Positions 33,351 to 63,222 are shown, counted from the first letter of the stretch. The stretch is 64,000 nt of DNA from Elusimicrobiota bacterium (GCA_040757695.1 JBFLWK010000002.1:10407-74406), one strand, 5' to 3'. Numbers and translations are program-made. The notes: generated by a model not told the origin, from the letters alone.

Positions 33351-35396
33351 ATGCACACCTATATAACTACTAGATGGAAAGATGGAAAGATGGAAAGATG
33401 GTTAGGTAATAGATTTTCCTTTCTATCTTTCTATTTTTCTATCTTTCTATCTCTCTATCTTTCTACCTGCCTTTATGCAACTGCATCTGCACCGAAAGTG
33501 GTTGAGGATGGTGTACTGTTCACATTTGACGCAAAGAATGCACATAAAGTATATTTAGCCGGCTCTTTTAAGAAAGATAATGATGGGAATTCAGTGGTTA
33601 ATTTCAGCGAACTTGTAACGGTAACTAAAAAACGGCTCTTGGTTGAAGGTCGGATTCTAAAACCGTTAATTGTTGAAAAAATCAAAAAAAATTTGGATAG
33701 CATTTATATAAAAAAAATAGTCCTGCATAAAATCTGGATAAAACCAAATGAAGAAACGAAAGTTACTGTAGATATAGAAAATATAGAGAGTAAAAAAAAA
33801 GATACTACACTTGTGTTTTATGTTAAAAAGTTTGACAACCAAGTATTAGCACAAAAAGAAACAAAAAAAATAGAGAAATCTATAACATTTGAAATCCAAA
33901 CAAAAAGTTACAGTGAAGACGGTTATATTTTTGAGTTTGAATTAAAAGAAAAAGAAAAAGTTATAGATAGAGAATATGAAGTTATTTCAATAGTAAAAAA
34001 TATTTCTGATGATTTAAGATACGGCTTCTATGCAAACTGGGATAAAATCGGCGCTGACTACAAGAAGAAAACCGACTATTTTGCACAACTGCATATCAAT
34101 GCGATTGAGTATTACGATTATTTTCCAGCACACGGTTATTACGCACCTAAAGAAAAAATGTATAAATCTGAGCCATTCGGTATAACGATTTTAGCCGACG
34201 ATATTCAGCAAAAAATTGATTCTGCACGAGACCGAAATATCCTGTCTGTTGCATATGTTGCTGCATATTCGGCTTCTAAATCTATTTATGAAAAATACCC
34301 GTATCCAATGACTGATGAAAAAGGCAACCCGAAAGTTTTTAATGGTAGTATCACAACAGAACTTGACGCCAAAAACCAAAACAAGGATATCTGGTTTTAT
34401 CTGATGGCAATCGCACAGGATACTAAATGGTATTCTTACATTATGGAACAGTTCAGAAAAACGATGGATAATTCTGCTGATGATTTGGTTTCATTTGATG
34501 GTTTTGAGATTGATTCTTACGGTCATTCCAAAAACGAACGATACTATAGTGCAAGTAGTAAATATAATGGTGAACTGTTGAGCACAATTATTATGACTTT
34601 TGTGAATGCTGTTCGTAAAATAGCACATAAAATTAAACCTGATTCTGTTGTATCGTTTAATTGTGTCAACGAATACGGTATAGAGCAAATGTGTAATATA
34701 GTGGATTTCCTATTCATAGAGAATTGGGCGGGTTATAAAAGCGGCTTAGAAGATTTAGTTGATATCTGCTATAAAAACCGTGTGGCTAAAAATCAGCGGG
34801 TAGTAATCAAACTCTATCCAGCGGATACTGTGGGCAGTCCAAAAATATTCTCAAAAGAATGTCTGAAATACTTACTCGGTGCTGCAATGACCGGCGGCGG
34901 CTCCGTTATGGTTGCCGGCGAGCCTGACGAACAAAACAACCGAATGCATGCGTTGAATACGCTTTATTATCCTGATAATGTCGCAATGCCCGACGACAAT
35001 TTTGGTATCTTAAAAAATTATTATACTTTTGATACACTGCTATACAGAATCACACACGGCAAAAATGTGAATAACCTGAAGTCAGATTTTGAACTACCGG
35101 ATTGTATTACAAGAGAATTTTTATCAAATAGATATATCGTGGTAAGTATTTTGCATAACGGCAACAACAGTGAATGGAATCAAAAAGTTGCCACACCGAA
35201 TACATTAGAAAACTACGAAATTGCTTATACTCTGCCTAAAAACAAAAAACCAGTCGCGGTCTATTATGGAACGCCGGATTACGAGGAATTACTAATACCT
35301 AAATCATTAGATTGGGAGTTAAAAGACGGATATATTCGGACACTACTGCCGAAACTTGAAACTTACGGTGTTTTAATAATAGAAACAATACAATGA
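33351..35396 (+). CDS. lipoprotein with putative TIM-barrel glycoside-hydrolase-like C-terminal domain (family uncertain; GH66/GH114-like suspected)
   Basis: 681 aa; repeat-built signal peptide ending YLSTCLYATASA; C-terminal FAQLHINAIEYYDYFPAHGYY. Sits next to ABC sugar transporter genes. Confidence 0.45.
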   Translation: MHTYITTRWKDGKMERWLGNRFSFLSFYFSIFLSLYLSTCLYATASAPKVVEDGVLFTFDAKNAHKVYLAGSFKKDNDGNSVVNFSELVTVTKKRLLVEGRILKPLIVEKIKKNLDSIYIKKIVLHKIWIKPNEETKVTVDIENIESKKKDTTLVFYVKKFDNQVLAQKETKKIEKSITFEIQTKSYSEDGYIFEFELKEKEKVIDREYEVISIVKNISDDLRYGFYANWDKIGADYKKKTDYFAQLHINAIEYYDYFPAHGYYAPKEKMYKSEPFGITILADDIQQKIDSARDRNILSVAYVAAYSASKSIYEKYPYPMTDEKGNPKVFNGSITTELDAKNQNKDIWFYLMAIAQDTKWYSYIMEQFRKTMDNSADDLVSFDGFEIDSYGHSKNERYYSASSKYNGELLSTIIMTFVNAVRKIAHKIKPDSVVSFNCVNEYGIEQMCNIVDFLFIENWAGYKSGLEDLVDICYKNRVAKNQRVVIKLYPADTVGSPKIFSKECLKYLLGAAMTGGGSVMVAGEPDEQNNRMHALNTLYYPDNVAMPDDNFGILKNYYTFDTLLYRITHGKNVNNLKSDFELPDCITREFLSNRYIVVSILHNGNNSEWNQKVATPNTLENYEIAYTLPKNKKPVAVYYGTPDYEELLIPKSLDWELKDGYIRTLLPKLETYGVLIIETIQ

Positions 35397-35399
35397 AAC

Positions 35400-35570
35400 C
35401 GCAGATGAACGCAGATATACGCAGACGCCGTTCCCGTCCCGTATGTGTCATTCCCGCGAAAGCGGGAATCTACGGGATAAACTCCAGCGGGAATCTACAA
35501 TTATGGATTCCCGATAGAGACACTCGGGAATGACACTTCGTGTCATCTGTGTTCTCAGTGTTCTCTGTGG
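35400..35570. repeat. left arm of ~150-bp inverted repeat (ACGCAGAT iterons + GGGAATGACA hairpins)
   Basis: Near-identical reverse complement of 36461-36655. Confidence 0.8.
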
Positions 35571-36460: not shown

Positions 36461-36655
36461 ATGAAACCACAGATAAACACAGATGAACACAGATGACACG
36501 AAGTGTCATTCCCGAGTGTCTCTATTGGGAATCCATAATTGTAGATTCCCGCTGGAGTTTATCCCGTAGATTCCCGCTTTCGCGGGAATGACACATACGG
36601 GACGGGAACGGTGTCTGCGTATATCTGTGTGCAATCTGCGTAATCTGCGTTCAAA
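36461..36655. repeat. right arm of ~150-bp inverted repeat
   Basis: Reverse complement of 35400-35570; compared base-by-base by hand over ~150 nt. Confidence 0.8.
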
Positions 36656-37476: not shown

Positions 37477-38877
37477 ATGCAAAAAGTGGCTAAGTGGTTT
37501 GTTGACTTCAAGTGGTTAAGTGGTCAAGTGAATAGATGGTTTGGTGGTCAGGTGGTTAGGTGGTTAGGTTTGGTTTTCCTATCTACCTATCTACCTATCT
37601 ACCTATCTACCTGCTTTACCGGTTGCAGGAAAAAAGATGGGAAGTTAAAAGAAGGCGAGGTAGAACTTGAATATATGATGTGGGGTGAGCCGGATGAATT
37701 AAAAACGGTAACCGAGTACTTGAAACAATTTGAAGAAAAGTTCCCTAAAATCAAGATAAAAATACTGCATACCCCACAAAATTACGACGATAAACTAAAA
37801 ACGATGTTCGCTGCACATACACCGCCGGATGTTATGTATGTCGGGCTTGAGACATTCCCATCATTCGCAACCCGCGGTGTGCTTTTAGACCTCAATCCAT
37901 ATCTTGAACGAGATAAGCAGGAGTTTAACCTTAACGATTTTTATCCGGAACTGATGAAATGTTTTGAATACGATGGAAAGTATTACGGGATTGCAAAGGA
38001 CTTTACACCGTTAGTTTTGTATTACAACAAAGATATGTTTGATAAAATGGGGGTAAAATATCCGAATAAGAAGGGTGGGTGGAAATGGGCTGATTTTTTA
38101 GATGCTGCAAAAAAACTGACTGTTGATTTTAATAACGATGGTAAAATAGACCAGTACGGGTTTGTATTAGAGACATGGTTTCAAGAATGGGCACCTTGGG
38201 TTTGGCAGAATGATGGAAAAATAATGAGCGATGATAAAAAGAAATGGCTGCTCGGCTCACCTGAGTATATTGATAGAAATTCAGAAGCAGTCCAGTTCCT
38301 TGCGGATTTGGTCTGGAAACATAATGTCGCACCGAGACCAACTGTGACAACTGATTTTGGTACTGCGGATATGTTTATGACTGGCAAAGTGGCTATGTGC
38401 ACTTACGGTAGATGGATGTGTATGCAATTCAGGCATATAAAAGATTTTAAGTGGGATATCGCACCACTGCCGTATAACAAAAAACGGGCTGCTACGCTTT
38501 TTGTTGTCTGCTACGGTATCGCAAACGAATCCAAACATAAAGAAGAGGCATGGCAACTTATAAAGTACTTGATGAGTAAAGAAGGGCAGGAATTGGTTGC
38601 AGAAGCAGGTCATGCTATACCGTCTTTGAAATCAGTTGCAAAGTCAGACCGTTTCCTGAAAGCGAAAGTGATTACTCAGCCGATAGATGCAAAGGTTTAT
38701 CTTGATTCAATAAAATATGCTCAACCGACACCGACAAATCCATACTGGGTTGAAATAAATGAGTTATTAGGCAGAGAGATTGATTGGGTCTGGCAGGGTA
38801 AAAAACCAGCCAAAGAAGTTTTAGAAACAATTCAGCCACAGATAGAAAACCTGCTATCAAAATATTATGTAAAATAA
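37477..38877 (+). CDS. ABC sugar transporter substrate-binding lipoprotein
   Basis: 466 aa; paralogous to 1021-2286; leader built from AAGTGG/AGGTGG and CTACCTAT repeats ending YLSTCFTGC. True start may be an internal GTG. Confidence 0.8.
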   Translation: MQKVAKWFVDFKWLSGQVNRWFGGQVVRWLGLVFLSTYLPIYLSTCFTGCRKKDGKLKEGEVELEYMMWGEPDELKTVTEYLKQFEEKFPKIKIKILHTPQNYDDKLKTMFAAHTPPDVMYVGLETFPSFATRGVLLDLNPYLERDKQEFNLNDFYPELMKCFEYDGKYYGIAKDFTPLVLYYNKDMFDKMGVKYPNKKGGWKWADFLDAAKKLTVDFNNDGKIDQYGFVLETWFQEWAPWVWQNDGKIMSDDKKKWLLGSPEYIDRNSEAVQFLADLVWKHNVAPRPTVTTDFGTADMFMTGKVAMCTYGRWMCMQFRHIKDFKWDIAPLPYNKKRAATLFVVCYGIANESKHKEEAWQLIKYLMSKEGQELVAEAGHAIPSLKSVAKSDRFLKAKVITQPIDAKVYLDSIKYAQPTPTNPYWVEINELLGREIDWVWQGKKPAKEVLETIQPQIENLLSKYYVK

Positions 38878-38959
38878 TAGAGTCAACTTTTTCTACGAAA
38901 CTTTAGTTTCGGTTAAAACCGAATCAGAACCGGCACTGAAGTGTCAAAAGTAACACAAG

Positions 38960-39582
38960 GTAGACGGCAATTAATTGCCGTCTACGGAAGGAGATAAATA
39001 TATGGGCAAAATTCACAGGTTTTTGGAAAAAGGTGCGGTTCATTTTGTAACAACTAATACTATAAATCGTGTGAAAATTTTTAATGATGAAGTTTCTGCA
39101 AGATTTCTGTTATTATGTATTGGGTATCATAAGTTTATGCTTAATTTTTACCTTCTGGGATATGTGATTATGCCAGACCATTTACATATGTTGTTGCAGA
39201 TTTTAAGCGAGAAATATAATCTATCTGTTATTATGAAGCAAATCAAAGGCAATTTTGCCCGTAAATACAACGAATGGTATCAAAAAAACCAACCCACAGG
39301 TAGTCGGCGTTTAAACGCCGACTACCTGAAATGGGATTATAGAGGGTTTTCATACAAACCTGTATGGCAGGAAAGTTTTTATGACACTGCATTACGAGAC
39401 CCAAAACAAGTTCGTGAAAAAATAGAATATATGCATTGGAATCCCGTCAAAGCAGGGATTGTTGACCACCCTAAAGATTATGAATTTTCAAGTTATCACC
39501 AGTATTACGGTGAAAAAAGATTATGGATACAAATCCCTATAGAAAAATTTATAATTTAATACGGCATTTAATTGCCGTCTAC
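38960..39582 (+). mobile_element. RAYT family-1 cassette: REP palindrome - RAYT gene - REP
   Basis: 5' GTAGACGGCAATTAATTGCCGTCTAC (38960-38985), 3' ACGGCATTTAATTGCCGTCTAC (39561-39582); same architecture as 62614-63222. Confidence 0.7.
39002..39559 (+). CDS. REP-associated tyrosine transposase (RAYT; IS200-like Y1 HuH transposase, COG1943-like)
   Basis: HuH motif PDHLHMLL; C-terminal YMHWNPVKAGIVDHPKDYEFSSY. SD GGAAGGAG upstream of ATG 39002; ~80% identical to 62656-63210. Contains an internal perfect 28-nt palindrome at 39299-39326. Confidence 0.75.
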   Translation: MGKIHRFLEKGAVHFVTTNTINRVKIFNDEVSARFLLLCIGYHKFMLNFYLLGYVIMPDHLHMLLQILSEKYNLSVIMKQIKGNFARKYNEWYQKNQPTGSRRLNADYLKWDYRGFSYKPVWQESFYDTALRDPKQVREKIEYMHWNPVKAGIVDHPKDYEFSSYHQYYGEKRLWIQIPIEKFII

Positions 39583-47886: not shown

Positions 47887-47940
47887 AAACAAACAAGCCC
47901 ACTAAAGTGGGGAATAATTTTACACCCGACTTTAGTCGGC
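47812..47940. repeat. REP family-2 cluster (3x ACCCGACTTTAGTCGG + CCCACTAAAGTGGGG)
   Basis: Encodes the last ~25 aa and stop codon of the 2787-aa protein (...YPTLVGYVEKRFTPDLLIPDFSR*). Confidence 0.75.
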
Positions 47941-47953
47941 AAAAACAAAAAAT

Positions 47954-48526
47954 ATGCGGTTTTATCTAGATAATACATATTATTTCATAACGTGTGCAAC
48001 CAGAGAACATTATACACTATTTAATACAAATGAGAAAAAACAAATTTTACTTAATCAAATAAATAAAGTAGAAAAAAACCTAAAAATTCCAGTTCTGTCA
48101 TATGGGATTCTTGCAAATCATTATCATATATTATTTCATCTTTTAGAAGGTAAGAAACTTAAAAAAGCAATGCAAACTATAAATGGTGGCAGTTCGTATC
48201 TGCTAAATCAACTGACCGGTATCTATCGGTCGGTATGGGATAAATACTTTGCAAAAATAATAACTACCGAACAGATGTTTTACAAAATTATTGGATATAT
48301 TGCGGGAAATCCTTTAAAACACAGTGAAGTAAATAATTTTGAAGAATTAAAATCGTACCAATTCTCAAATTATTATCAGCTTTGTTACATTTATGGCGAA
48401 AAAACAGCAAAGGCGCTTGTGCAAAGTACAATTGTAGTAGATGAAGCAGATAATTTTAAACCCGACTTTAGTCGGTTGAAAGAAGCGCAACTTACACCCG
48501 ACTTCAGTTGGCTGAAAGAAGTGTAA
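47954..48526 (+). CDS. REP-associated tyrosine transposase, second family
   Basis: 190 aa; HuH-like ILANHYHILFHL; C-terminal YIAGNPLKHSEVNNFEELKSYQFSNY. C-terminus (PDFSRLKEAQLTPDFSWLKEV) is REP-encoded; flanked both sides by REP-2 clusters. Confidence 0.6.
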   Translation: MRFYLDNTYYFITCATREHYTLFNTNEKKQILLNQINKVEKNLKIPVLSYGILANHYHILFHLLEGKKLKKAMQTINGGSSYLLNQLTGIYRSVWDKYFAKIITTEQMFYKIIGYIAGNPLKHSEVNNFEELKSYQFSNYYQLCYIYGEKTAKALVQSTIVVDEADNFKPDFSRLKEAQLTPDFSWLKEV

Positions 48527-48571
48527 CTTACACCCGACTTTAGTCGGAGAAAACAAACCCACTAAAGTGGG
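48461..48571. repeat. REP family-2 cluster (CCCGACTTTAGTCGG, ACCCGACTTCAGTTGG, ACCCGACTTTAGTCGG, CCCACTAAAGTGGG)
   Basis: Mirrors the upstream cluster 47812-47940. Confidence 0.75.
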
Positions 48572-48726
48572 AAATAATATGGTCGCTAACCAGACAAAAG
48601 GGGGTGATTAAAATGGGAAGATGGTTAGAAACTGGAGTACGACGATTTATCGTCGCTAATTCGCGTATATTCGCGGGTCTAATTCGCGAAGATTCGCGTT
48701 ATTCTAAAAAAAAGGAGGTGATTAGA

Positions 48727-49854
48727 ATGGAAAGATGGTTAGATGGAAAGATGGTAAGATGGCTCGGTCTTGCTTCTTGCTTCTTGTTTCTTGTTTCTTG
48801 TTCGCTGTTTGCTGATTTTGGTGGTGCAGGTGCGCCTACTGCTGATGGTACATATGGTGCAGCGGTAAAGTACATCTCTTTACAGCAAGGAACAACATCA
48901 TCTGCATGGATGAATAGAGGCAATATCGCAGCATTCGCTCAAATGACTTCTGTTGGTGATGGAACATACTACTGCAAATACAACCTCTATCCGGGCGCTG
49001 TCTACAACTATATGTTTTTTGCTACTTTTGGTAGTTCAACACCACCAACCGGTATAACCGGTGGGACAACCTACTATGACTGCCCTCGTGATAGCGGTGA
49101 TGATGCTGCATTCTTTGTAGCGGTTGACTCCAACAACCCAACTGGAACAAGACGAGCCGGTGCCGCATATTTCGGTGCAGGTAATGATAGTGGTGATTCC
49201 AGACGAATACTTGTTGTGCCACAGGATACCGGTTATTCGCTTTCTTCAACCTCAGGTGTCTGGGTGTATAACAACTGGTCATCTACCGGTGTAGCAAATG
49301 TAGATGCAATCCCTGTAAGTAACACATCTCTCAATGTTACACTTGGTGCGTACACAACATGGGGAACTGGTGAAAGTTACAAATCTATTGACATCTACGG
49401 TGGCGGGAAATGGTTTCTCTATAGAGCAACAGACCTCACGGGTACTTACGGGTTAATTGCATCTTCTACCTCTGCTAACTTAGGTGCTAATATGACCTAT
49501 CTGGATGAAGGTTTAACAACAGGTACCACTTATTACTACATCGCAGTTACATCAGATGCCTATAAAGGTGCAATGAACGCACTTGCAGCAGATGGCTGTC
49601 TTGTGAGGCAGTTAACTGGCGGTGCAACAGGACCATATGCGCCAAGTTATGACCAGCCTAGTGAAATCAGTTATGACGACTACGCAAGACCTGCAGCTGC
49701 GATACCTGTGTACTTCAAAGTTGAAGCACCCAACTGGGACTATATCGCAGAGCATGACTACATAGTATACCTGACACCGGTTGGTAAAGACGGCAGAGAA
49801 TGGCCATACAAGATGCCAGGCAGAATCTGTAGAGTGTATCTACCGAAAACATAA
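48727..49854 (+). CDS. secreted protein paralogous to the C-terminal modules of the 2787-aa protein
   Basis: SD AAGGAGGTGATTAGA before ATG 48727; signal peptide FLFLVSCSLFADF. YFGAGNDSGDSRRILVVP ~ WYGNVGATGDSRRLLYVP; PVYFKVEAPNW ~ PLYFKVERKD. A near-duplicate start (ATG 48613) lies upstream. Confidence 0.6.
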   Translation: MERWLDGKMVRWLGLASCFLFLVSCSLFADFGGAGAPTADGTYGAAVKYISLQQGTTSSAWMNRGNIAAFAQMTSVGDGTYYCKYNLYPGAVYNYMFFATFGSSTPPTGITGGTTYYDCPRDSGDDAAFFVAVDSNNPTGTRRAGAAYFGAGNDSGDSRRILVVPQDTGYSLSSTSGVWVYNNWSSTGVANVDAIPVSNTSLNVTLGAYTTWGTGESYKSIDIYGGGKWFLYRATDLTGTYGLIASSTSANLGANMTYLDEGLTTGTTYYYIAVTSDAYKGAMNALAADGCLVRQLTGGATGPYAPSYDQPSEISYDDYARPAAAIPVYFKVEAPNWDYIAEHDYIVYLTPVGKDGREWPYKMPGRICRVYLPKT

Positions 49855-49929
49855 GCACGAATAAATGCTATATTCGTGAGTTAGTTCAGCCCATAATAGG
49901 GGTATATATTTTTGTGCCTTGATGTGATG

Positions 49930-50215
49930 GTTGTAGTGTTTAGTGTAGGGGCGGGTTTACCCGCCCGAAACAACGGACAGGTAAACCTGTCCCTACGGAT
50001 GAAATGTAGCGCCCGATTTCCCGCCATAGGCGGGTCTGCCTAAGGCATGATATATCGGGCGTAGGTACGTCCCATATAAAATGGGACGCTACAAATGAAA
50101 AACTGCAATTATAAAAATTATATCTAAGGACATGGGAAGGGAGTGGTTTATCTCTAAAAACCAATGAAAAATTAAAAATTAAAAATGTAGTGCGATGCTT
50201 TAGCATCGCTATAGG
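49930..50215. repeat. cluster of GTAG-prefixed nested GC-rich hairpins (BIME-like REP cluster; alternatively a structured ncRNA)
   Basis: TGTAGGGGCGGGTTTACCCGCCC, GGACAGGTAAACCTGTCC...CCCTAC, TGTAGCGCCCGAT...ATCGGGCG, GTAGGTACGTCCCATATAAAATGGGACGCTAC, TGTAGTGCGATGCTTTAGCATCGC. Confidence 0.5.
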
Positions 50216-50329
50216 CTAAAAATGGACAGAAAAAATTATTATCACAGATTAACACAGAAATGTCATTCTGAACGAAGCGTTAGCGGAGTGAAGAATCTCG
50301 GGATTCTTCCCCGCCTCAGGCGGGTCAGA

Positions 50330-53053
50330 ATGACAACAATGCTGTTATCTGCGTTCATCTGTATCTTTTTTCTGCAGTCATTTGTGTTCTGTAGTTCTGA
50401 GAAAGCGCCATGGTCTAACTACTCGAAATGGCTTACTGGTTCGGATACACTTGGCAACTGGCAGGTAAAAGCAAACACAGGCACCTGGGATGGCGCTAAT
50501 AACTGGGTAATAAAAATATCTACTGAAGATCCGCAAAAAGCATTTTTCCCGGGTAGAGATTATTACTATCTCTATCAGACCATAACACCGGCGGGGGGTG
50601 GGGGTGAGGGGGTTGTCTGGGACCAACGAGCACGCGGGAAATCACAAGACCAATGGCAACCTTGGAAATCAGAACGAAAAATCAATCTACCTATTTTAGG
50701 TATTGATAAAGTGCTTGCAAATGGAACAACATATTATCCACTAAATGATTATATTGTCTGGTATGGCTCATGGCCTGTTGATAGCGGCCATTGGGAAGTC
50801 TACGATAACTGGGGTGGTGGGAATACAACTGACTCAAGAAAAGGTCCACCACTACCACCAACAAATCTTACCGGCTTTTTAATTGGTAAATATACAGGTG
50901 TAGGAGCATCAATAGAATGGACTCAACCTACCTGGTATGGTGATGATATCAAGGACTTAACAGCCGGCGGTGGTTATGAATTATGGCGGTCGTCTTATTC
51001 TTCTATTGCATCAACAACCACATTCACAAAAGTTGCAATTGCACTTGGTCCAGCACCACCACTTTCTTACACAGATACAGGGCTTTTATCAAATACCACA
51101 TATTTCTATTGTTTGAAATCATATGATGCCTATCTGCCAGCAGATTATTCTGGATTCTCTAATGTGTTAGCGCTCTATGGCGCTCAGCAACCGGTTGATA
51201 TCACATTCAATATTGATATAACAGGCTATTCTGCAGATAAGGTTTTTGTCTGGTGTGAATTCTCTAATGAAAAATACCAGATGCCTGACAGAAAAAACCA
51301 TCTCTGGAGTATAAAAATTCCGAATTCTGCAGCACCATTAAAACTGCTTATTGGTAACACAATAAAATACAGGTATGTTAAAGATAATGACTGGGAGCAG
51401 TATGACAGAAGCGTGCTGCTGGTTTCTACAGATACTGTATTAAACGATATCTGGGGTGTAGAAACAGTGCCGGATTCACCCGCAGGTCTGGCAGCTGAAA
51501 TCGTCACTTTTAGAACTGAGCCCGTCGGAAGTTATAGAACAAATGTTCTATGGGAGACAGACCCGAAACAATTACAAAATATCGCTGGCTATGAAATTCA
51601 GCACTCTACATTTTCAAACTTTACCAGTTCTACTACAATTACAATTCTGTCTGCAAATACAAGTTCGTATTTCCTGACATCCGCGGCTGCATATTTTAGA
51701 TTCTCAACTATTTACAAAACTGGCGTAAAATCAAGCCAGTCTGATATAATCCCACGTGGAACTGAACTACCTGCACTTGTTGAATTACAGAATACCGATG
51801 CAAAAGCTATAAATACATTGATTGCAAGAACTGGCTCAAATACAGGCGAGATTATTCTGTTTTGGAAGGCGCCGGAAATATCTACATCAGCCGGTAGTGC
51901 AAACCATTATATCATTCGCCAGGCAACTTTTCCAATGACGAACATTTCATTATTCAAACAAGGTACTCTCACAGGTAAAGCAAAAGCACATTATACTGAT
52001 ACTGATGAAGCATACATAACATTGAATCTTGGTGAAGAATGCCCTGGCTATTATTTTGGTATAGAAGCGATTTATGGCAACTGGAAAGCAGCAACTGTAT
52101 CAAACAATATAATCGGTGTTGCAGGTAAGTTTATTGTAACCAAAAAAGGCGGGACTACCGAAAAAGCAGCAAAAGGATTAGGAACTGAAGAACAGTACTT
52201 AACAAAACCGAACATAATAACCAAAAAATACGGAGTATCCGTTCCGAACGCAATTTTTGTTGTAAAAAATTCTGTTGAACTCGCAAAACTAACCGAGCCG
52301 GAATTAAAAAAGATACTAACTTCTGAGACACTACCGAATTTAGCAGCACAAAAACGATTTAAACAGCCGACTGAAAATACGGATTTAGAAAATAAGGACT
52401 CTACTGTGTTTGAATTCTCGGCATTTAGCCAGGCAAGTAATAAATTATTCAGCAGTGCCGAAAATATCAATCTGCCGTTTGTCATCGCAATCCCGTATTC
52501 TCAACTTGATAAAGATAATGACGGAATAGTAGATTCATCTAAAGGCACACAAAATGAGATAAAAGTCGCTAACCTGCGGGTTTATCGGCTGAATGAAAAA
52601 TATAACCCACCTTTCTGGCAGCGACTGAAAGATGGCACCAATTCTGTTGATACTGTCAACAAATTGGTAAAAGCAGAAACAAAACATCTATCATACTTCT
52701 GTCTCGCCACACCCGGTAATGCTGCGGAAGATTTATCAAATGTCGTTGTATTCCCGAACCCGTTCAAGCCTTACGATAATAAAGCCGAAACAGGCAGTTA
52801 TGAAACCGGGATTATATTCACCAACTTGACACCAACTGCCGAAATATGGATTTATACTATCGCAGCCGAACTGGTAAAAAAACATAAACTTCAAGGGCTT
52901 TCTGATGACGAAAAAGAAGGTAAATGGAAATGGGATGTCCGAAATGATGCTGGCGAACGGCTCGCATCCGGTGTGTATGTTTTTGTTGTAAAAGATGAAA
53001 ATGTGAAATTGGGGAAGGACAAATTTGTAGGAAAATTATGTGTTATTAGATGA
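50330..53053 (+). CDS. secreted FN3/CBM20-like protein with T9SS-type C-terminal sorting domain
   Basis: ATG 50330 lies in the terminal IR of a GTCATTCTGA...TCAGAATGAC repeat; signal peptide ICIFFLQSFVFCSSE. CBM20-like VDITFNIDITGY...IKYRYVKDNDWEQYDR; CTD starts VVFPNPFKPY and ends KFVGKLCVIR. Confidence 0.65.
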   Translation: MTTMLLSAFICIFFLQSFVFCSSEKAPWSNYSKWLTGSDTLGNWQVKANTGTWDGANNWVIKISTEDPQKAFFPGRDYYYLYQTITPAGGGGEGVVWDQRARGKSQDQWQPWKSERKINLPILGIDKVLANGTTYYPLNDYIVWYGSWPVDSGHWEVYDNWGGGNTTDSRKGPPLPPTNLTGFLIGKYTGVGASIEWTQPTWYGDDIKDLTAGGGYELWRSSYSSIASTTTFTKVAIALGPAPPLSYTDTGLLSNTTYFYCLKSYDAYLPADYSGFSNVLALYGAQQPVDITFNIDITGYSADKVFVWCEFSNEKYQMPDRKNHLWSIKIPNSAAPLKLLIGNTIKYRYVKDNDWEQYDRSVLLVSTDTVLNDIWGVETVPDSPAGLAAEIVTFRTEPVGSYRTNVLWETDPKQLQNIAGYEIQHSTFSNFTSSTTITILSANTSSYFLTSAAAYFRFSTIYKTGVKSSQSDIIPRGTELPALVELQNTDAKAINTLIARTGSNTGEIILFWKAPEISTSAGSANHYIIRQATFPMTNISLFKQGTLTGKAKAHYTDTDEAYITLNLGEECPGYYFGIEAIYGNWKAATVSNNIIGVAGKFIVTKKGGTTEKAAKGLGTEEQYLTKPNIITKKYGVSVPNAIFVVKNSVELAKLTEPELKKILTSETLPNLAAQKRFKQPTENTDLENKDSTVFEFSAFSQASNKLFSSAENINLPFVIAIPYSQLDKDNDGIVDSSKGTQNEIKVANLRVYRLNEKYNPPFWQRLKDGTNSVDTVNKLVKAETKHLSYFCLATPGNAAEDLSNVVVFPNPFKPYDNKAETGSYETGIIFTNLTPTAEIWIYTIAAELVKKHKLQGLSDDEKEGKWKWDVRNDAGERLASGVYVFVVKDENVKLGKDKFVGKLCVIR

Positions 53054-53116
53054 ATAATGTAGCCACCGAATTTATTCGGGGGTGAGCGAAGCGAATAATA
53101 AGTTCGTGGGGAAGTT

Positions 53117-54157
53117 TTGTATAATCCGATGAATAAAAATCAAAAATCAAAAATCAAAAATCAAAATGACAGATTAAAATTCAAAAATTTTAGATTTTGG
53201 ATTGTCATTTTGCATTTTACATTTTGCATTTTACATTTTGCCGAAGGCAGTGGTCCCGGCACTACTTCTGCCAATTTCCTGAAAATAGGTATCGGTGCAA
53301 GACCTGTGGCAATGGGTGAGGCATTCGTTGCAGTTGCCGACGATGCTAATACAATCGTGCATAATCCTGCCGGGCTTGCTCAACTATCACAAAAAGAATT
53401 CTCAGCAATGCATCTGGAGTATTTTCAGAATATAAAATATGAAGCGCTTTCATATCTACAACCATTCAAATTCGGAACTGCTGGTATCTCGCTTGGTTAT
53501 CTTTATATGAACGATATAAAGCGAACCTATTTTTACGAAGAAGAGTATTATAAAGAAGCAGGCGAATTCGGCGCCGCAGACAGAACCGCGGTTTTAGGTT
53601 TCGGTAAAAAATTAGGTAGTCGGCACTTAAGTGCCGACTACGGATATGGCTTAGCAGTAAGGTTTATCCGAGAGACGCTTGAGAGCGAATCCGCTACTGC
53701 TTTTGCGTTGGATATCGGGTTGCTCTGTAATCGGCAATTAATTGCCAATTACATTTCTTTACCACTGTCTTTTGGTATCGCAATTCAGAACATTGGCACA
53801 CAGATGAAGTTTATTGAAGTAAAAGAGAAACTACCAATTATTTTGAGAACTGGTGTTTGCTGGAATGTATCAGGTAAGAGGGGAATTAATTCCCCCCTAC
53901 TTGCGTTTGAGTTTTATAAACCATCAGATAATTATCCGGAATTAAAACTCGGCTCGGAAATATGGCTTTTTGACCTTTTTGCACCACGTATTGGCTATCG
54001 TTACAGAACCTGGGCAAGAAATAACTATCTTGGTGACCTCTCAGGGCTTACCGCAGGGCTTGGTATCAAAATATATAATTATACAGTTGATTACGCATTC
54101 GTGCCTTACGGTGATTTGGGCTATACGCATAGATTCTCACTAGGTGGCAGATTTTAA
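53117..54157 (+). CDS. PorV/PorQ-family-like outer-membrane beta-barrel (no TPR tail)
   Basis: FLKIGIGARPVAMGEAFVAVADDANTIVHNPAGLAQL; contains three in-frame REP family-1 palindromes (53617-53642, 53732-53748, 53879-53896). Leader from (AAATCAAA)n/(ACATTTTG)n repeats. Confidence 0.55.
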   Translation: MYNPMNKNQKSKIKNQNDRLKFKNFRFWIVILHFTFCILHFAEGSGPGTTSANFLKIGIGARPVAMGEAFVAVADDANTIVHNPAGLAQLSQKEFSAMHLEYFQNIKYEALSYLQPFKFGTAGISLGYLYMNDIKRTYFYEEEYYKEAGEFGAADRTAVLGFGKKLGSRHLSADYGYGLAVRFIRETLESESATAFALDIGLLCNRQLIANYISLPLSFGIAIQNIGTQMKFIEVKEKLPIILRTGVCWNVSGKRGINSPLLAFEFYKPSDNYPELKLGSEIWLFDLFAPRIGYRYRTWARNNYLGDLSGLTAGLGIKIYNYTVDYAFVPYGDLGYTHRFSLGGRF

Positions 54158-54201
54158 GAAAGGCAGATAGGAGATAGGGGATAGGAGATGGGAGATGGGA
54201 G

Positions 54202-54435
54202 ATGAGAATGGAACACGAAGGATACTGTTTACGAAATTATAAACAAGAATATATGCACTATTTATATCGTGCATATGCTGAGTGTAGAGAGACAATCGAA
54301 CATTTAGAGTTTCTGTATGAAACAGGTTCTCTAAAAGAGAAACCATCCAATCTTTTCACAGAATATTCAAACTTGTGTAAAATGATATATTCCTTTATAA
54401 TCTCTGTAGAAAAAGAACACATAAGCAAAAAATGA
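54202..54435 (+). CDS. small four-helix-bundle (23S rRNA IVS-like) protein, probably truncated
   Basis: 77 aa; YAECRETIEHLEFLYETGSLKEKPSNLFTEYSNLCKMIYSFIISVEKE resembles the C-terminal half of the TIGR02436 four-helix-bundle family. Flanked by inverted STR arrays 54158-54200 and 54450-54490. Confidence 0.3.
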   Translation: MRMEHEGYCLRNYKQEYMHYLYRAYAECRETIEHLEFLYETGSLKEKPSNLFTEYSNLCKMIYSFIISVEKEHISKK

Positions 54436-56555
54436 AAACCTGTATCTGCTATCTGCTATCTGCTATCTGCTATCTGCTATCTCCTATCTGCCTTTTCGCC
54501 TCTTCACCTCACACAATCACAGTTGACGGTAACCTTTCCGACTGGTCTTCAGACGAATTGATTTATGATGACCCGACAAACGACGGTGCCTGGGGACAAC
54601 AGAATCAGGTTGATAATCTGTATCTCACCTGGGATAGTAATAATCTGTATATCGGTGTAAGCGGTGTTCAGAAAGATGGGAATTGTTTTGTATTGTATTT
54701 AGATGCTGGAAGGGAACTTACAAATATCGGTCAGAAATTTGGTGATTATTCAGATGTATCTCAACTGAAAGATTCAAGTGGCTATTCTTGGTGGTGGTCA
54801 AGAAATCATAAATTCCCGTTTGGCTTTTTACCTGATTATCAACTTCATCTTTATGAAATGCAGTTAAAATTGAACGAGGGACACGGACTTTTCAGATATA
54901 CAACAAGCAGTCAGACAGTATCAGTTGAGATGAGTTCTTCTGCATATATTGGTGGTGGGACAGGTGTTTATGGCAGTTTTGAAGTTGCAATCCCGTGGGC
55001 TCAAATCTATCCTGATTACGGGGGAAGTATTCCTCAAAATGCAACCTTACAACTTGTTGCTGTGATGTCAGGCGGGAATGACACATCTAACCAACTACTC
55101 GGTTCTGTCCATGATTCAATTCCTGACCAACTAACGGATTTCACAACCTATTGGCACGGAGCATTTACGTTTGATACATGGCTAACAATACCGTTAGACC
55201 AAGATAGAAATAAGGAACCTGATATAAATCGGTCGCCTGTCCCGAGGAATCTTTTGGCAAAAGCAGGTGATGGTTGCGCATTTTTATCCTGGCAGAAAAA
55301 GGGCTTCTGGGAAAAAAATCTTAACGGCTATAAACTGTATTACAAAAAGCAACAGAGTTTTGCAGAAACAGATTTCTCATTAACAGGTGCAACTTCTGTT
55401 TTCGTTAGTAATACTACAAGTTATATTTTAACCGGTTTAGAAAATAATGTTTCATACTATTTTGTGCTAACTGCTATAAATACTGACGGGACTGAATCAG
55501 GTTGCTGTGAAGAAGAGTATTGTTATATCCACGGACCTACAATCTTTCATACATCAATAGAAAAGTTTGCATATCCAGGCAAAAATATCACAGTATCTGC
55601 TAATATCACAGATTCATCAGAACTTAAAATAGTAAATTTTTACTATAAAGTTCACGGTGGCGTATGTTATTCTGAAAATGTATTAACTCCAACACCCCCA
55701 ACATCGGCATCTTACAACTTCACAATCCCGGGTGATTCTGTAACACCGGAAGGGATTGACTATTACTTTTTAGCCGAGAATAATTCTGGCGATGTGAATA
55801 TCGCATCATCAACAATTGTGATTGTTTCAACAGAGTCCGGAAATTATAGTGTGGAAGCAGGGCTGGAATTGAAATTATCTGATACATCAACATATCCAAC
55901 AAAAATCGTAATCCCACCTTACGCATTAGACAGAACCCAAAAAATCTATGTTGAAGTAAAAAGCCACGGTGTTATCTTTCAAGACAACCAATCTCCAATC
56001 CCCAATCCCCAATCTCCAATCTCTGACATTTACCCTGTCTGTGTCTATGATTTTTATGGTGAGAATAAAACAGCAGTCGCATTTTCTAAAAATGCAGAAA
56101 TATATCTGAAATACTTTGATGACGATTTAGATAACAATTACTCTGAGATAACCTTGAAGCCGTTTGTCTGGACTGGTACGGAGTGGCTTGAATTAAAAAA
56201 TATCACACAAAATACTACCAATAATTTTGTTAAAGGTAAAACAGGTCATATCTCAAGATTTGCCGTATTTTATACCAACTCTTCTGGTAGCGCAGCCTTA
56301 AGGCCACATCTACAAAAAGTTGTCCGTTCTACTTTTATTCCTGACCGCGGTGAAGTTGTTGAGTTTAATTGTGCACAGTTGCCAACAAAAATAGAAATTT
56401 TTAATACATACGGTGCAAGAGTAAAAAAAATTACAGAACTCACTTACTGGGACGGCAGAGATGAAAACGGTACGATTGTGTCCGCAGGCGTTTATATCTA
56501 CCAGATACATTTTGGTAAAGAAATAATCTCAGGCAGTTGCGTTGTGGTGAAATGA
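54432..56555 (+). CDS. secreted CBM9-like/FN3 protein with T9SS-type C-terminal sorting domain
   Basis: Leader (CTGCTAT)x5; ITVDGNLSDWSSDE...LYLTWDSNNLYIGV; FN3; C-terminus WDGRDENGTIVSAGVYIYQIHFGKEIISGSCVVVK; stop overlaps next start. Confidence 0.7.
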   Translation: MKTCICYLLSAICYLLSPICLFASSPHTITVDGNLSDWSSDELIYDDPTNDGAWGQQNQVDNLYLTWDSNNLYIGVSGVQKDGNCFVLYLDAGRELTNIGQKFGDYSDVSQLKDSSGYSWWWSRNHKFPFGFLPDYQLHLYEMQLKLNEGHGLFRYTTSSQTVSVEMSSSAYIGGGTGVYGSFEVAIPWAQIYPDYGGSIPQNATLQLVAVMSGGNDTSNQLLGSVHDSIPDQLTDFTTYWHGAFTFDTWLTIPLDQDRNKEPDINRSPVPRNLLAKAGDGCAFLSWQKKGFWEKNLNGYKLYYKKQQSFAETDFSLTGATSVFVSNTTSYILTGLENNVSYYFVLTAINTDGTESGCCEEEYCYIHGPTIFHTSIEKFAYPGKNITVSANITDSSELKIVNFYYKVHGGVCYSENVLTPTPPTSASYNFTIPGDSVTPEGIDYYFLAENNSGDVNIASSTIVIVSTESGNYSVEAGLELKLSDTSTYPTKIVIPPYALDRTQKIYVEVKSHGVIFQDNQSPIPNPQSPISDIYPVCVYDFYGENKTAVAFSKNAEIYLKYFDDDLDNNYSEITLKPFVWTGTEWLELKNITQNTTNNFVKGKTGHISRFAVFYTNSSGSAALRPHLQKVVRSTFIPDRGEVVEFNCAQLPTKIEIFNTYGARVKKITELTYWDGRDENGTIVSAGVYIYQIHFGKEIISGSCVVVK

Positions 56556-58054: not shown

Positions 58055-58178
58055 AAAAGTTGTAAAATGACCCGTTGTATTAAAAACAGGACGCAGATGA
58101 ACGCAGATGGACACAGATTATATCCTGATTTTTCTGCGTAAATCTGCGTCCAGTTTGCATACGATACGGAATCCGACT

Positions 58179-61639: not shown

Positions 61640-61735
61640 GGCAAGTTAAAGGTATAAATTAAAGGTTAAAATTAAAGGTATAAATTAAAATTACAACCAA
61701 ATTTTAACCTTTAACCTTTAACCTTTAACCTGCAG
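61640..61735. repeat. long inter-cistronic hairpin of (TTAAAGGT)n ... (AACCTTTA)n inverted 8-bp repeat arrays
   Basis: 4 direct TAAAGGT units then 4 inverted AACCTTTAA units between the two permease genes. Confidence 0.7.
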
Positions 61736-62613: not shown

Positions 62614-63222
62614 GTAGACGGCACTTAAGTACCGTCTACTAAAGGAGAAAACTTTATGGGTAAACTTCAAAGATTTTTGGAGAAAGGAGCGGTATATTTT
62701 GTAACAACAAATACAATTGAACGAAACAAAATTTTTAGTGATGAAACCGCAGCAAAATTTCTATTGTTATGTATTGGTTATCACAAATTTATGCTCAATT
62801 TTAATTTATTGGGTTATGTAATAATGCTAGACCATTTACATTTATTATTGCAGGTTTTAACTGAAAAATATAGTTTGTCTAATATAATGAAACAAATCAA
62901 AGGCAATTTCGCAAGAAAATATAACGAATGGTTATATCAAAGTAGTCGGCACTTAAGTGCCGACTACAAGAAAAGGATTATGAAAAAATCTGGGAACCAT
63001 ATTTACATGCCCGCATGGCAGGAAAAATTTTATGATATTGCGTTACGCGACCCGAAACAGATTCGGGAAAAAATTGAGTATATGCACTGGAATCCCGTCA
63101 AGGCAGGGCTTGTTAATCACCCTAAAGAATACGAATTTTCAAGCTATCACCAGTATTACGGTGAAAAAAGAACATGGATACAAATACCGATAGAAAAATT
63201 CATTATCTAATACGGCACTTAA
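62614..63222 (+). mobile_element. RAYT family-1 cassette, second copy (REP - RAYT - REP)
   Basis: 5' GTAGACGGCACTTAAGTACCGTCTAC (62614-62639), 3' ACGGCACTTAAATGCCGTCTAC (63201-63222). Confidence 0.7.
62656..63210 (+). CDS. REP-associated tyrosine transposase (RAYT), paralog of 39002-39559
   Basis: LDHLHLLL HuH; YMHWNPVKAGLVNHPKEYEFSSY; internal perfect 26-nt palindrome 62943-62968 at the same position as in the paralog; SD AAAGGAG. Confidence 0.75.
   Translation: MGKLQRFLEKGAVYFVTTNTIERNKIFSDETAAKFLLLCIGYHKFMLNFNLLGYVIMLDHLHLLLQVLTEKYSLSNIMKQIKGNFARKYNEWLYQSSRHLSADYKKRIMKKSGNHIYMPAWQEKFYDIALRDPKQIREKIEYMHWNPVKAGLVNHPKEYEFSSYHQYYGEKRTWIQIPIEKFII

What the first reader, a model, noticed from the sequence alone, without database searches (positions are those of the whole stretch)
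48727..48770. AGATGG 8-bp repeats place an ATG in all three reading frames in front of the signal peptide
Two leaders carry this repeat:
- ATGGAAAGATGGTTAGATGGAAAGATGGTAAGATGG (48727-48762)
- AGATGGAAAGATGGAAAGATGGAAAGATGG (33363-33392)

They carry ATG triplets at 8-bp spacing, so successive ATGs fall in frames 0, 2, 1, 0... A one-unit slippage would therefore still leave an ATG in frame with the downstream h-region, changing only the n-region length rather than abolishing expression.

The same peptide module (W-[KL]-D-G-K-M-x-R-W-L-G) thus appears on three unrelated genes (33351, 48727, 37477 with AAGTGG/GTG variants). A near-duplicate RBS+start (AAAGGGGGTGATTAAAATGGGAAGATGGTTAGAA at 48597-48630) sits 120 bp upstream of the 48727 start.
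Basis: partly seen in the sequence, partly recalled or inferred. Interest (0 to 1): 0.55.

Follow-up and report, generated by a model that had tools for sequence, protein, structure and literature searches.

The report
Signal peptide encoded by short repeats
The AGATGG repeat is real, but it is the front part of an ordinary secretion signal that this uncultured Elusimicrobiota lineage routinely builds from 7-8-base tandem repeats, and the ATG in every unit looks like a by-product of the unit's sequence rather than a slippage-proof start site.

Summary
The repeat exists as described: 48727-48762, five ATGs 8 bp apart. The second array is really at 33372-33401, not 33363-33392. It is far beyond chance.

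It is not a special device of two leaders. The window, from an Elusimicrobiota MAG, holds 59 short arrays against 0-4 in shuffles. Arrays of period 7/8 cover 16% of the first 150 nt of genes against 1% of the remaining coding sequence. Most exported proteins have a purine-rich array encoding the signal peptide's n-region, a pyrimidine-rich array encoding the h-region, and then a [LF][FY][AGS] cleavage motif.

At 48727 the first ATG follows one of only two full-length Shine-Dalgarno sites in 64 kb. The out-of-frame ATGs give 4-26-aa dead ends. A 61%-identical orthologue keeps the same peptide through five synonymous changes, two Arg-to-Lys changes and one 3-nt indel. That is ordinary coding evolution in one frame, not unit slippage.

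An in-frame ATG does formally survive ±1-2 units, but there is no evidence that slippage occurs, because no strain variants exist in any collection.

More interesting is that adjacent arrays are often wobble reverse complements (p about 5e-5; not at 48727). Whole modules are also shared between unrelated genes.

The parts
48727..49854 (+). Gene for a 375-aa exported protein of unknown function (no Pfam family). Prodigal/Logan start at 48727. PGAP aa from 48613 (MEW6555837.1).
48727..48813 (+). Predicted Sec signal peptide MERWLDGKMVRWLGLASCFLFLVSCSLFA. Cleavage after LFA is inferred from alignment with orthologues (...LFA|xFGGAGA); no predictor was run.
48727..48762 (+). Flagged array: degenerate 8-bp repeat (ATGGWWAG x4.5, 82% matches) that encodes the n-region. 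ATGs at 48727, 48735, 48743, 48751, 48759.
48768..48810 (+). 7-bp pyrimidine-rich array (TCTTGYT x5) that encodes the h-region. It is not complementary to the 8-bp array.
48712..48721 (+). Shine-Dalgarno site 2 (AAGGAGGTGA), 5 nt upstream of ATG 48727.
   Evidence: complementarity to the 16S rRNA 3' end is from general knowledge
48598..48630 (+). Shine-Dalgarno site 1 (AAGGGGGTGA) plus ATG 48613 plus GGAAGATGGTTAGAA. Near-duplicate (30/34) of 48713-48746 and in frame with the main ORF.
48640..48655 (+). Leader hairpin CGACGA-TTTA-TCGTCG. The same loop with different stems occurs in L012, L014, L015 and at window 53067.
48659..48698 (+). Four ATTCGCG copies spaced 10, 13 and 10 bp apart. They are conserved in L014 but read in different frames there, so they are a nucleic-acid element and not a peptide.
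33372..33401 (+). Perfect (AGATGGAA) x3.8 array, the n-region of a GH66-family exported protein (gene 33351-35396).
33419..33465 (+). (CTTTCTAT) x5.9 h-region array. It is the wobble reverse complement of 33372-33401, and the two form a 30-bp stem.
37512..37569 (+). (GTGGTTAG) x7.2 n-region array of a sugar ABC substrate-binding lipoprotein (gene 37477-38877).
37578..37612 (+). (CCTATCTA) x4.4 h-region array, complementary to 37512-37569 with G.U pairs.

Best explanation
The AGATGG repeat is the purine-rich, n-region-encoding half of a Sec signal peptide. Like most signal peptides in this Elusimicrobiota lineage, that signal peptide is assembled from short non-triplet tandem arrays. A purine-rich array gives the K/R/W/D/G/E-rich n-region. 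A pyrimidine-rich array gives the L/F/S/Y/I/C-rich h-region. A conserved [LF][FY][AGS] c-region follows.

Shown or supported by sequence comparison: translation of the 48727 gene runs in frame 0 through the repeat, and the peptide is under ordinary purifying selection.

Inferred: initiation is at the Shine-Dalgarno-proximal ATG 48727. The ATG in each unit is incidental to the unit sequence AGATGGWW. That unit is a common octamer repeat elsewhere, and at 33372 it is the wobble complement of the h-region unit TTCTATCT. The arrays arise by a lineage-specific propensity to generate 7-8-bp arrays, often as inverted pairs, and persist where proteins tolerate them, above all in signal peptides. Modules are occasionally copied between genes.
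For: Lineage-wide pattern:
- 59 arrays (32 of period 7/8) against 0-4 (0-1) in 20 dinucleotide shuffles.
- Period-7/8 arrays cover 16.1% of the first 150 nt of CDSs, 1.1% of the rest of CDSs and 3.3% of intergenic DNA.
- By inspection, about 12 of 17 exported proteins carry arrays in their signal peptide, against essentially none of the cytoplasmic or polytopic proteins.
- Array density is high in close relatives (L012, L013, L015) and zero in distant ones (L002, L003, L007, L009).

Start site: only two A[AG]GG[AG]GGTGA sites occur in the window, at 48598 and 48712. Orthologues start 'MKKFL...' directly after the equivalent site.

Coding constraint: against L012, the n-region has 7 identical codons, 5 synonymous changes, 2 Arg-to-Lys changes and one 3-nt indel.

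Out-of-frame ATGs end after 4-26 codons.

The upstream leader is not protein-constrained, because its ATTCGCG copies are read in different frames in the window and in L014.

Other n-arrays lack ATG.

(AGATGGAA)n is widespread as non-coding arrays that yield spurious small ORFs 'MERWKDGKMERW...' in many metagenomes.

Orthologues keep the mature protein but carry entirely different repeat-built signal peptides.
Against: - Non-triplet repeat units concentrated in the 5' coding region of surface or secreted-protein genes are the classic signature of contingency loci.
- Several arrays are perfect (100% matches), which suggests recent expansion or ongoing homogenisation.
- No population data could be obtained. 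All protein clusters are singletons, and the one extra contig is identical and comes from a single sequencing run, SRR29635779. Slippage is therefore untested, not excluded.
- An in-frame ATG does survive ±1-2 units in simulation.
- A second strong Shine-Dalgarno site plus ATG at 48613 is in frame, PGAP uses it, and the double-start architecture recurs in L012, L014, L015 and L003.
- The signal peptide and its cleavage site are inferred by alignment and not by a predictor.
Confidence: 0.65

Rival explanations
1. One reading: the arrays are slipped-strand contingency repeats. Because each unit carries an ATG, a gain or loss of units re-selects an in-frame start, so expression is kept or tuned while the n-region length changes. 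This would be a licA-like translational switch without an OFF state.
For: - ATGs lie in frames 0, 2, 1, 0, 2.
- The simulation always leaves an in-frame ATG.
- Non-triplet arrays are enriched about 15-fold at gene 5' ends, mostly in exported proteins.
- Precedents exist: licA CAAT with alternative initiation codons (PMC2212159) and opa CTCTT in the leader peptide (PMC3960869).
Against: - A Shine-Dalgarno site precedes only the first ATG.
- The other frames are closed.
- The orthologue shows codon-wise rather than unit-wise evolution.
- Most sister arrays have no ATG.
- The h-region arrays that follow would still frameshift, so the design would not protect expression.
- All array-bearing genes in the window are in frame.
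- Paralogous fn3-loop arrays in the giant gene keep the same length.
- The array at 33372 is locked in a -46.6 kcal/mol stem.
Confidence: 0.12
2. The arrays are primarily nucleic-acid elements. Paired, wobble-complementary arrays form a hairpin in the mRNA or DNA and may act as a regulatory, processing or mobile cassette. Coding for a signal peptide would be a secondary use: the purine arm is hydrophilic and the pyrimidine arm is hydrophobic.
For: - Cognate array pairs are far more complementary than non-cognate ones: 11 curated pairs, 0 of 20,000 permutations; 18 automatically enumerated pairs, p = 5e-5.
- The sense RNA is much more stable than the antisense for five pairs, through G.U pairs.
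- The same paired arrays occur in intergenic DNA (61646-61731; L013:2205-2271) and inside a histidine-kinase ATPase loop (30543-30624).
- In L013 a 123-column module is 87% identical between two unrelated genes, with identical arms and a diverged loop.
Against: - The flagged 48727 pair is not complementary: rank 9/11 and 10/18, fold z = +0.5.
- 1021, 56537 and L012:204 are also weak.
- Part of the signal is simply shared period and purine/pyrimidine bias.
- There is no Rfam match.
- No function was demonstrated, and the G.U bias can also be explained by coding constraints.
Confidence: 0.15
3. Translation really starts at 48613, as PGAP has it. The AGATGG array would then be internal to a 52-residue n-region or N-terminal extension, and the in-array ATGs would be irrelevant as starts.
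For: - A strong Shine-Dalgarno site lies 5 nt before ATG 48613, and the frame is open into the main ORF.
- The same in-frame double-start layout occurs in L012, L014, L015 and L003.
Against: - The leader's conserved features are a hairpin with covarying stems and ATTCGCG repeats read in different frames in different species, so no peptide is conserved.
- Orthologue L013 has no leader at all.
- In-frame continuity was ascertained on proteins that had been called long, which biases the sample.
Confidence: 0.1

Closest known systems
Haemophilus influenzae licA (lic1) CAAT translational switch
   Same: Both have a non-triplet tandem repeat in the 5' end of the ORF with potential ATG start codons in more than one frame, so that unit number decides which start is in frame (PMC2212159).
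   Different: In licA the ATGs lie upstream of a long, perfect tract (6-33 units in the isolates tabulated in PMC2212159), and unit number is demonstrably variable with ON and OFF states. Here the ATGs are inside a short, degenerate 4.5-unit array, only one has a Shine-Dalgarno site, the other frames are closed, and no variation is documented.
Neisseria opa CTCTT coding repeat
   Same: Both have a pyrimidine-rich, non-triplet repeat inside the leader-peptide coding region of surface proteins (PMC3960869). It is the best analogue of the h-region arrays (TCTTGYT, CTTTCTAT, CCTATCTA).
   Different: In opa one unit is shared by a paralogous family, and phase variation is proven at about 1e-3 per generation. 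Here there are many different units on unrelated genes, each paired with a purine-rich partner array, and all copies are in frame.
Abundant heptamer/octamer direct repeats in other bacteria (TAACTGA in Beggiatoaceae, Cyanobacteria and Bacteroidetes; GGGNATC in Xanthomonas and Nostoc; cyanobacterial STRR)
   Same: Both show genome-wide excess of 7-nt-class tandem repeats with 2-8 copies close to gene starts, sometimes tolerated at protein termini (PMC4679880; PMC4692102). STRR is cited from my own knowledge.
   Different: Those systems have one or a few dominant unit sequences and are mostly non-coding. Here there are dozens of different units of period 7 or 8, most enriched inside the first 150 nt of ORFs, and often arranged as inverted, wobble-complementary pairs.
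Rickettsia palindromic elements inserted in frame in genes
   Same: Both are palindromic or hairpin-forming repeats that sit inside ORFs and are translated as extra peptide segments where the protein tolerates them (from my own knowledge; the search only listed papers that mention RPEs).
   Different: RPEs are about 100-150-bp dispersed elements of fixed sequence families. Here the arms are tandem 7-8-mers that differ between loci.
Canonical Sec (type I / lipoprotein) signal peptide
   Same: Both have a positively charged n-region, a hydrophobic h-region, and a c-region with small residues. Orthologues have plain 'MKKFL...LFA' signals at the same place.
   Different: Here the n-regions are unusually long (13-35 aa) and Trp-rich, and both n- and h-regions are encoded by non-triplet DNA repeats read in three frames.

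Membership tests
Sec signal peptide | N-terminal basic n-region followed by a 10-20-residue hydrophobic h-region | tested here: met
   MERWLDGKMVRW | LGLASCFLFLVSCSLFA. The same layout occurs in the other array-bearing genes.
Sec signal peptide | Cleavage motif with small residues, and a mature N-terminus conserved among homologues | tested here: met
   18 homologues align from '...[LF][FY]A | xFGGAGA' onward, while the preceding region is not conserved. No dedicated predictor was available.
Sec signal peptide | Experimental export or cleavage | not testable with these tools
   The organism is an uncultured MAG.
SSR contingency locus (phase variation) | Tandem repeat with a unit not divisible by 3 inside the ORF or promoter | tested here: met
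   Periods 8 and 7 within codons 1-28.
SSR contingency locus (phase variation) | Unit number varies between cells, strains or samples | not testable with these tools
   All clusters are singletons. The only other contig (Logan, SRR29635779) is identical. No raw sequencing reads could be examined.
SSR contingency locus (phase variation) | Both in-frame and out-of-frame alleles are seen among loci or genomes | tested here: not met
   Every array-bearing 5' end in the window, and in L012, L013 and L015, is in frame. The orthologue differs by a 3-nt indel and not by an 8-nt unit. Caveat: the sequences are consensus assemblies.
licA-type multi-ATG translational switch | Start codons in at least 2 frames positioned so that repeat number selects one | tested here: met
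   ATGs lie in frames 0, 2, 1, 0, 2, and an in-frame ATG is retained after ±1-2 units.
licA-type multi-ATG translational switch | Each alternative start is usable (has an initiation context and an open frame to the body of the gene) | tested here: not met
   A Shine-Dalgarno site precedes only 48727. The frame-1 and frame-2 ATGs terminate after 4, 26 and 18 codons. At 33372 the ATGs lie in a 30-bp stem.
Abundant heptamer-repeat systems (TAACTGA / GGGNATC type) | One dominant unit sequence, mainly intergenic | tested here: not met
   Dozens of different units occur, and the strongest enrichment is in the first 150 nt of CDSs.

The most novel reading that the evidence does not exclude
In this Elusimicrobiota lineage, inverted pairs of 7-8-bp tandem arrays form hairpin cassettes. 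The purine-rich arm, when translated, gives a hydrophilic, basic n-region. The wobble-complementary pyrimidine-rich arm gives a hydrophobic h-region. These cassettes would be generated, homogenised and copied between unrelated genes, and possibly linked to the REP/RAYT or 23S-IVS-protein elements that sit among them. They would act as ready-made, exchangeable signal peptides and as mRNA stems. The G.U positions mark where exact complementarity would create a stop (TAG) in one arm or His/Pro codons in the other.
Probability: 0.3. Interest if true: 0.75.

Novelty: new variant of a known kind. Interest (0 to 1): 0.5.

Why it matters
If the ordinary reading holds, the practical lessons concern annotation.
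- In this lineage, start codons inside repeats mislead gene callers. PGAP and Prodigal disagree by 38 codons here, and hundreds of spurious 'MERWKDGK...' ORFs exist in databases.
- Signal peptides can be encoded by non-triplet microsatellites without being phase-variable.

If the paired-array reading holds, it would give a concrete mechanism for de novo birth and rapid replacement of signal peptides. It would exploit the fact that the complement of a hydrophobic-coding strand is hydrophilic-coding. It would also add a new class of in-ORF hairpin repeats in an environmental phylum.

If slippage does occur, a free-living Elusimicrobiota genome would carry one of the densest sets of contingency loci on surface proteins known outside host-adapted pathogens.

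Tried and rejected
1. Strain variants. Exact-protein look-ups and 90% clusters for ten window proteins gave only the source MAG and identical Logan contigs from SRR29635779. Unit-number polymorphism could therefore not be tested.
2. Metagenome scan for AGATGGNNAGATGGNNAGATGG. It returned more than 120 heterogeneous loci, many with long multi-copy repeat arrays and none a close relative. Only anecdotal parallels emerged: L063, paired arrays inside a MurG-like ORF, and L130, an array upstream of a short ORF that resembles the 23S rRNA-IVS protein family by eye (not scanned).
3. Orthologues of the GH66 gene 33351. The closest is 65% identical, and those inspected have ordinary signal peptides, so there is no unit-number series.
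4. RNA hairpin as the explanation of the flagged array. Rejected for 48727 (z = +0.5; rank 10/18), although it holds for 33372 and several others.
5. Rfam: no family anywhere in the window.
6. The promoter/terminator scan of 48300-48900 was uninformative about which start lies on the transcript.
7. The idea that 'MKK' at 33341 is the true start of gene 33351 put out of phase by the array. Rejected, because its frame stops at TAG 33371-33373, before the array.
8. Tandem duplication as the origin of the two RBS+start copies. Rejected, because only the 34-bp ends are similar and the 82 bp between them has no counterpart downstream.
9. Literature searches for repeat-encoded signal peptides in Elusimicrobia found nothing relevant.

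Full report
**1. Observation**

The flagged stretch reads exactly as described. 48727-48762 is ATGGAAAGATGGTTAGATGGAAAGATGGTAAGATGG. Tandem Repeats Finder scores it as an 8-bp repeat of 4.5 copies with 82% matches. ATGs lie at 48727, 48735, 48743, 48751 and 48759, in frames 0, 2, 1, 0, 2.

The second array is a perfect (AGATGGAA) x3.8. It lies at 33372-33401, not 33363-33392. The GTG variant lies at 37512-37569.

AGATGGNNAGATGG with up to 1 mismatch occurs 7 times, against 0.29 expected. The near-duplicate RBS+start at 48597-48630 matches 48713-48746 at 30 of 34 positions.

**2. Source and gene**

The window is part of a 94.9-kb contig of an NCBI MAG labelled Elusimicrobiota bacterium (locus tags AB1349_005xx-006xx). 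A Logan contig from run SRR29635779 is identical over 47888-53095.

The flagged gene encodes a 375-aa protein with no Pfam family. It has 33 homologues in Elusimicrobia, Omnitrophota and Endomicrobiia MAGs. The homologues align from '...[LF][FY]A | xFGGAGA' onward, and most begin with a plain 'MKKFL...' signal peptide. The repeat therefore lies in a cleavable Sec signal peptide, MERWLDGKMVRWLGLASCFLFLVSCSLFA. The cleavage site is inferred by alignment.

**3. The repeat is one instance of a window-wide pattern**

- TRF finds 59 non-overlapping arrays (32 of period 7 or 8), against 0-4 (0-1) in 20 dinucleotide shuffles.
- Period-7/8 arrays cover 16.1% of the first 150 nt of ORFs, 1.1% of the remaining coding sequence and 3.3% of intergenic DNA.
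- Reading the 5' ends, about 12 of 17 proteins with an export signal carry such arrays. These are the genes at 13, 1021, 6402, 8193, 27830, 32125, 33351, 37477, 48727, 53129, 54432 and 56552.
- They usually come as a pair. A purine-rich array encodes the n-region: CAGAAGT gives QKSEVRSQKSEVR, AAAAATC gives NKNQKSKIKNQ, and AGATGGAA gives RWKDGKME. A pyrimidine-rich array encodes the h-region: TTGCTTC, CTTTCTAT, CCTATCTA, TTCATTT, TATCTGC. A recurrent c-region follows (C-L-Y-[AG], L-F-A).
- Cytoplasmic and polytopic proteins lack these arrays at their starts.
- The array density is lineage-specific. It is 3.5-9.4 period-7/8 arrays per 10 kb in the window and in the close relatives L012, L013 and L015. 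It is zero in the more distant L002, L003, L007 and L009.

**4. Which ATG is used at 48727**

- Only two sites in 64 kb match A[AG]GG[AG]GGTGA, the extended complement of the conserved 16S rRNA 3' end (general knowledge). One lies 5 nt before ATG 48727 and the other 5 nt before ATG 48613.
- The in-array ATGs have no such site.
- The ATG at 48743 stops after 4 codons, 48735 after 26 and 48759 after 18. Only 48751 (Met9) is in frame.
- The 61%-identical orthologue in L012 has MEKLDGKMVKWLGL... after its own ribosome-binding site. Codon by codon, its n-region shows 7 identical codons, 5 synonymous changes (GGA/GGT, AAG/AAA, GTA/GTT, CTC/TTA, GGT/GGG), two Arg-to-Lys changes and one 3-nt indel.

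This is the signature of a peptide translated in frame 0 under purifying selection. The DNA repeat is decaying while the peptide is kept. It is not the signature of a tract that gains and loses 8-bp units.

**5. The upstream near-duplicate start**

PGAP starts the protein at 48613 (413 aa), while Prodigal starts it at 48727. The layout is SD1+start, short purine array, hairpin with a TTTA loop, then SD2+start. It recurs in L012, L014 and L015 and, in reduced form, in L003 and L005.

What is conserved in this leader is nucleic acid:
- The hairpin stem covaries: CGACGA/TCGTCG, CCCGA/TCGGG, GGGGCGAA/TTCGCCC.
- The four ATTCGCG copies are read in frames 2, 1, 0, 2 in the window but 1, 0, 0, 2 in L014.
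- Orthologue L013 has no leader.

I therefore take 48727 as the main start. I keep initiation at 48613 as a rival.

**6. The slippage idea**

In a simulation of ±1 and ±2 units, an in-frame ATG always remains: 48751 gives 'MVRWLGL...' and 33390 gives 'MERWLG...'. The formal claim is therefore correct.

The evidence does not favour it as a mechanism:
- After a slip the only SD-served ATG is out of frame, and it would drive ribosomes through a dead-end ORF that overlaps the internal ATG.
- The following h-region array (period 7) would still frameshift if it slipped.
- Most sister n-arrays contain no ATG.
- Every array-bearing 5' end examined is in frame.
- Paralogous arrays in fn3 loops of the 5454-aa gene keep their length.
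- At 33372 all in-array ATGs are inside a 30-bp stem (-46.6 kcal/mol, z = -8).

Unit-number polymorphism itself could not be tested, because no strain variants exist in the collections.

**7. Paired complementarity**

For many genes the h-region array is the reverse complement of the n-region array if G.U pairs are allowed. Examples are AGAUGGAA/UUCUAUCU (33372/33419), GGUUAGGU/ACCUAUCU (37512/37578), GGAGAUA/UAUCUGC (54165/54443) and GGUGUAG/CUAUACC (L013).

- Duplex energies of cognate pairs beat non-cognate pairings in 20,000 of 20,000 permutations for 11 curated pairs.
- For 18 automatically enumerated adjacent pairs, p = 5e-5.
- For five pairs the sense RNA is 10-21 kcal/mol more stable than the antisense, because the mismatches are G.U.
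- At 33372 the exact complement of the h-unit would be AGATAGAA, which has an in-frame TAG every third unit. Conversely, the exact complement of AGATGGAA is TTCCATCT, which would put His and Pro into the h-region. Either way, the wobble position is where coding and pairing conflict. This is an inference.
- The flagged 48727 pair (period 8 next to period 7) is not complementary: fold z = +0.5, rank 9/11 and 10/18.

**8. The paired arrays are not confined to signal peptides**

- One pair sits in a loop of the HATPase_c domain of a histidine kinase (30543-30624, giving ...ARGKRQEASKGKEVDSTGILHLASCI...).
- Others are intergenic (61646-61731; L013:2205-2271).
- One pair (54165-54203 and 54443-54491) brackets the C-terminal half of a PF05635 23S-rRNA-IVS-protein gene (E = 7.5e-7, below the gathering score).
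- (AGATGGAA)n is common as a non-coding array in unrelated metagenomes, where gene callers produce small 'MERWKDGKMERW...' ORFs.

**9. Turnover and exchange**

Orthologues keep the mature protein, but their signal peptides are built from different arrays. This holds for the 943-aa family in the window, L012 and L013, for the PorV-like family and for the 288-aa family.

In L013 a 123-column module (both arms identical, loop diverged) is 87% identical between the 5' ends of two unrelated neighbouring genes. The flanks are 31% and 46% identical.

In the window, 33390 and 48727 share the 16-mer ATGGAAAGATGGTTAG, and genes 32125 and 33351 share a 19-mer across the h/c boundary. Random segment pairs give a mean longest common substring of 8.9 nt, with a 95th percentile of 10.

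**10. Comparison with known systems**

There, CAAT number aligns one of several initiation codons with the ORF (PMC2212159).
- The h-region arrays resemble the opa CTCTT repeat in the leader peptide (PMC3960869).
- Abundance of heptamer repeats near gene starts is known in Beggiatoaceae, Cyanobacteria, Bacteroidetes and Xanthomonas (PMC4679880, PMC4692102).

The defining feature of the first two, documented unit-number variation with ON and OFF alleles, could not be tested or was not met here. The third differs in having one dominant, mostly non-coding unit. I found no description of signal peptides built from paired complementary non-triplet arrays, but the library searched is limited.

**11. 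Verdict**

The best reading is a repeat-encoded but otherwise ordinary signal peptide with a single Shine-Dalgarno-served start.

The lineage-wide paired-array architecture is the part worth following up.

Noticed in passing
window 33372-33465, 37512-37612, 27842-27924, 53135-53241, 54165-54491; L013:2408-2505: The n-region and h-region arrays of the same gene are wobble reverse complements of each other and can form long stems, up to 30 bp and -46.6 kcal/mol. Cognate pairs beat non-cognate pairs with p about 5e-5.
   Followed up: yes
L013:2426-2545 and L013:5170-5290 (approx.): A signal-peptide module of about 123 bp is 87% identical at the 5' ends of two unrelated adjacent genes. The arms are identical and the loop has diverged. 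The flanks are unrelated. The module has been copied between genes.
   Followed up: partly
window 30543-30624: A paired array (AGAGGCA x4.3 and GCATCTT x3.7) is inserted in frame in the HATPase_c domain of a histidine kinase. It adds about 20 residues (ARGKRQEASKGKE...ILHLASCI).
   Followed up: partly
window 15579-16307 and 22053-23764 (inside ORF 8193-24557, 5454 aa); 26357-27019: Perfect 7-8-bp pyrimidine-rich arrays (ATCCCCT, AATCTCTC, TATCTCC, TCTACCT and others) lie in frame within the repetitive, domain-like units of giant surface proteins. Paralogous copies keep the same length.
   Followed up: partly
window 54202-54432: A 77-aa ORF matches the C-terminal half of PF05635 (23S rRNA-intervening-sequence protein; E = 7.5e-7, below the gathering cut-off). 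It sits between a complementary pair of arrays (54165-54203 and 54443-54491). By eye (no domain search run on these stretches), IVS-protein-like sequence also adjoins arrays in L012:4463 and L130.
   Followed up: partly
window 48456-48571; 38950-39000; 47900-47950; genes 38975-39559, 47954-48526, 62656-63210: The IS200-like Y1 transposase gene 47954-48526 (Pfam-confirmed) and two apparent relatives, 38975-39559 and 62656-63210 (judged by eye), lie next to hairpin repeats. These include a 36-bp-period array of CACCCGACTTTAGTCGG and GTAG-hairpins such as GTAGACGGCAA-TTAA-TTGCCGTCTAC.
   Followed up: no
window 48640-48698; 53060-53085; L012:153; L014:8261; L015:10006 and 11213: A leader hairpin with an invariant TTTA loop and covarying stems recurs, often preceded by (G)TAG and a short purine array. 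In the window and L014 it is followed by four ATTCGCG copies at a spacing of about 10 bp. This could be a REP or a regulator-binding site.
   Followed up: partly
window 1030-1076, 2942-2985, 35400-35425, 36468-36496, 36614-36654, 58091-58118, 31322-31400: Intergenic and 5' arrays of period 9-13 share CGCAGAT / ATCTGCG or CCGAAT / ATTCGG cores. The spacing is about one helical turn, as in OmpR/PhoB-type binding sites. A response-regulator-like gene (30953-31342, judged from its N-terminal sequence) and its neighbour 31420-32112 lie nearby.
   Followed up: no
window 50255-50335; 32195-32230: Palindromic elements (TGTCATTCTGA...TCAGAATGACA with inner hairpins, and a related GTCATTGCGAGCG...GCAATC) are inserted in frame in the n-regions of two signal peptides. 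They are translated as 'CHSERSVSGVKNLGILPRLRRVRM' and 'SLRALAWQSR'.
   Followed up: no
window 33341-33373: A 10-codon uORF (MKKYAHLYNY) with a typical 'MKK' start lies in the +2 frame and ends at the TAG that begins the AGATGGAA array. The annotated start at 33351 has no Shine-Dalgarno site.
   Followed up: partly
window 33500-33700: Compared with its 65%-identical orthologues, the GH66-family protein appears to lack most of the region between '...YLAGSF' and the catalytic part. Some orthologues carry the precomputed PF16561 domain; no Pfam family was found in the window protein.
   Followed up: no
L063:1187-1300 (JGI metagenome): A pair of arrays (GGTCAGAT-type and CGACCACC-type) is inserted in frame just after a 'GGTGGHVYP' motif in an ORF that looks MurG-like by eye (no domain search run), in an unrelated organism.
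   Followed up: no
P0141-P0256; L138:1258-1340; L140:590-660: (AGATGGAA)n arrays of 3-8 units are widespread in metagenomes as non-coding DNA. They give rise to more than 100 spurious small ORFs that begin 'MERWKDGKMERW...'.
   Followed up: partly
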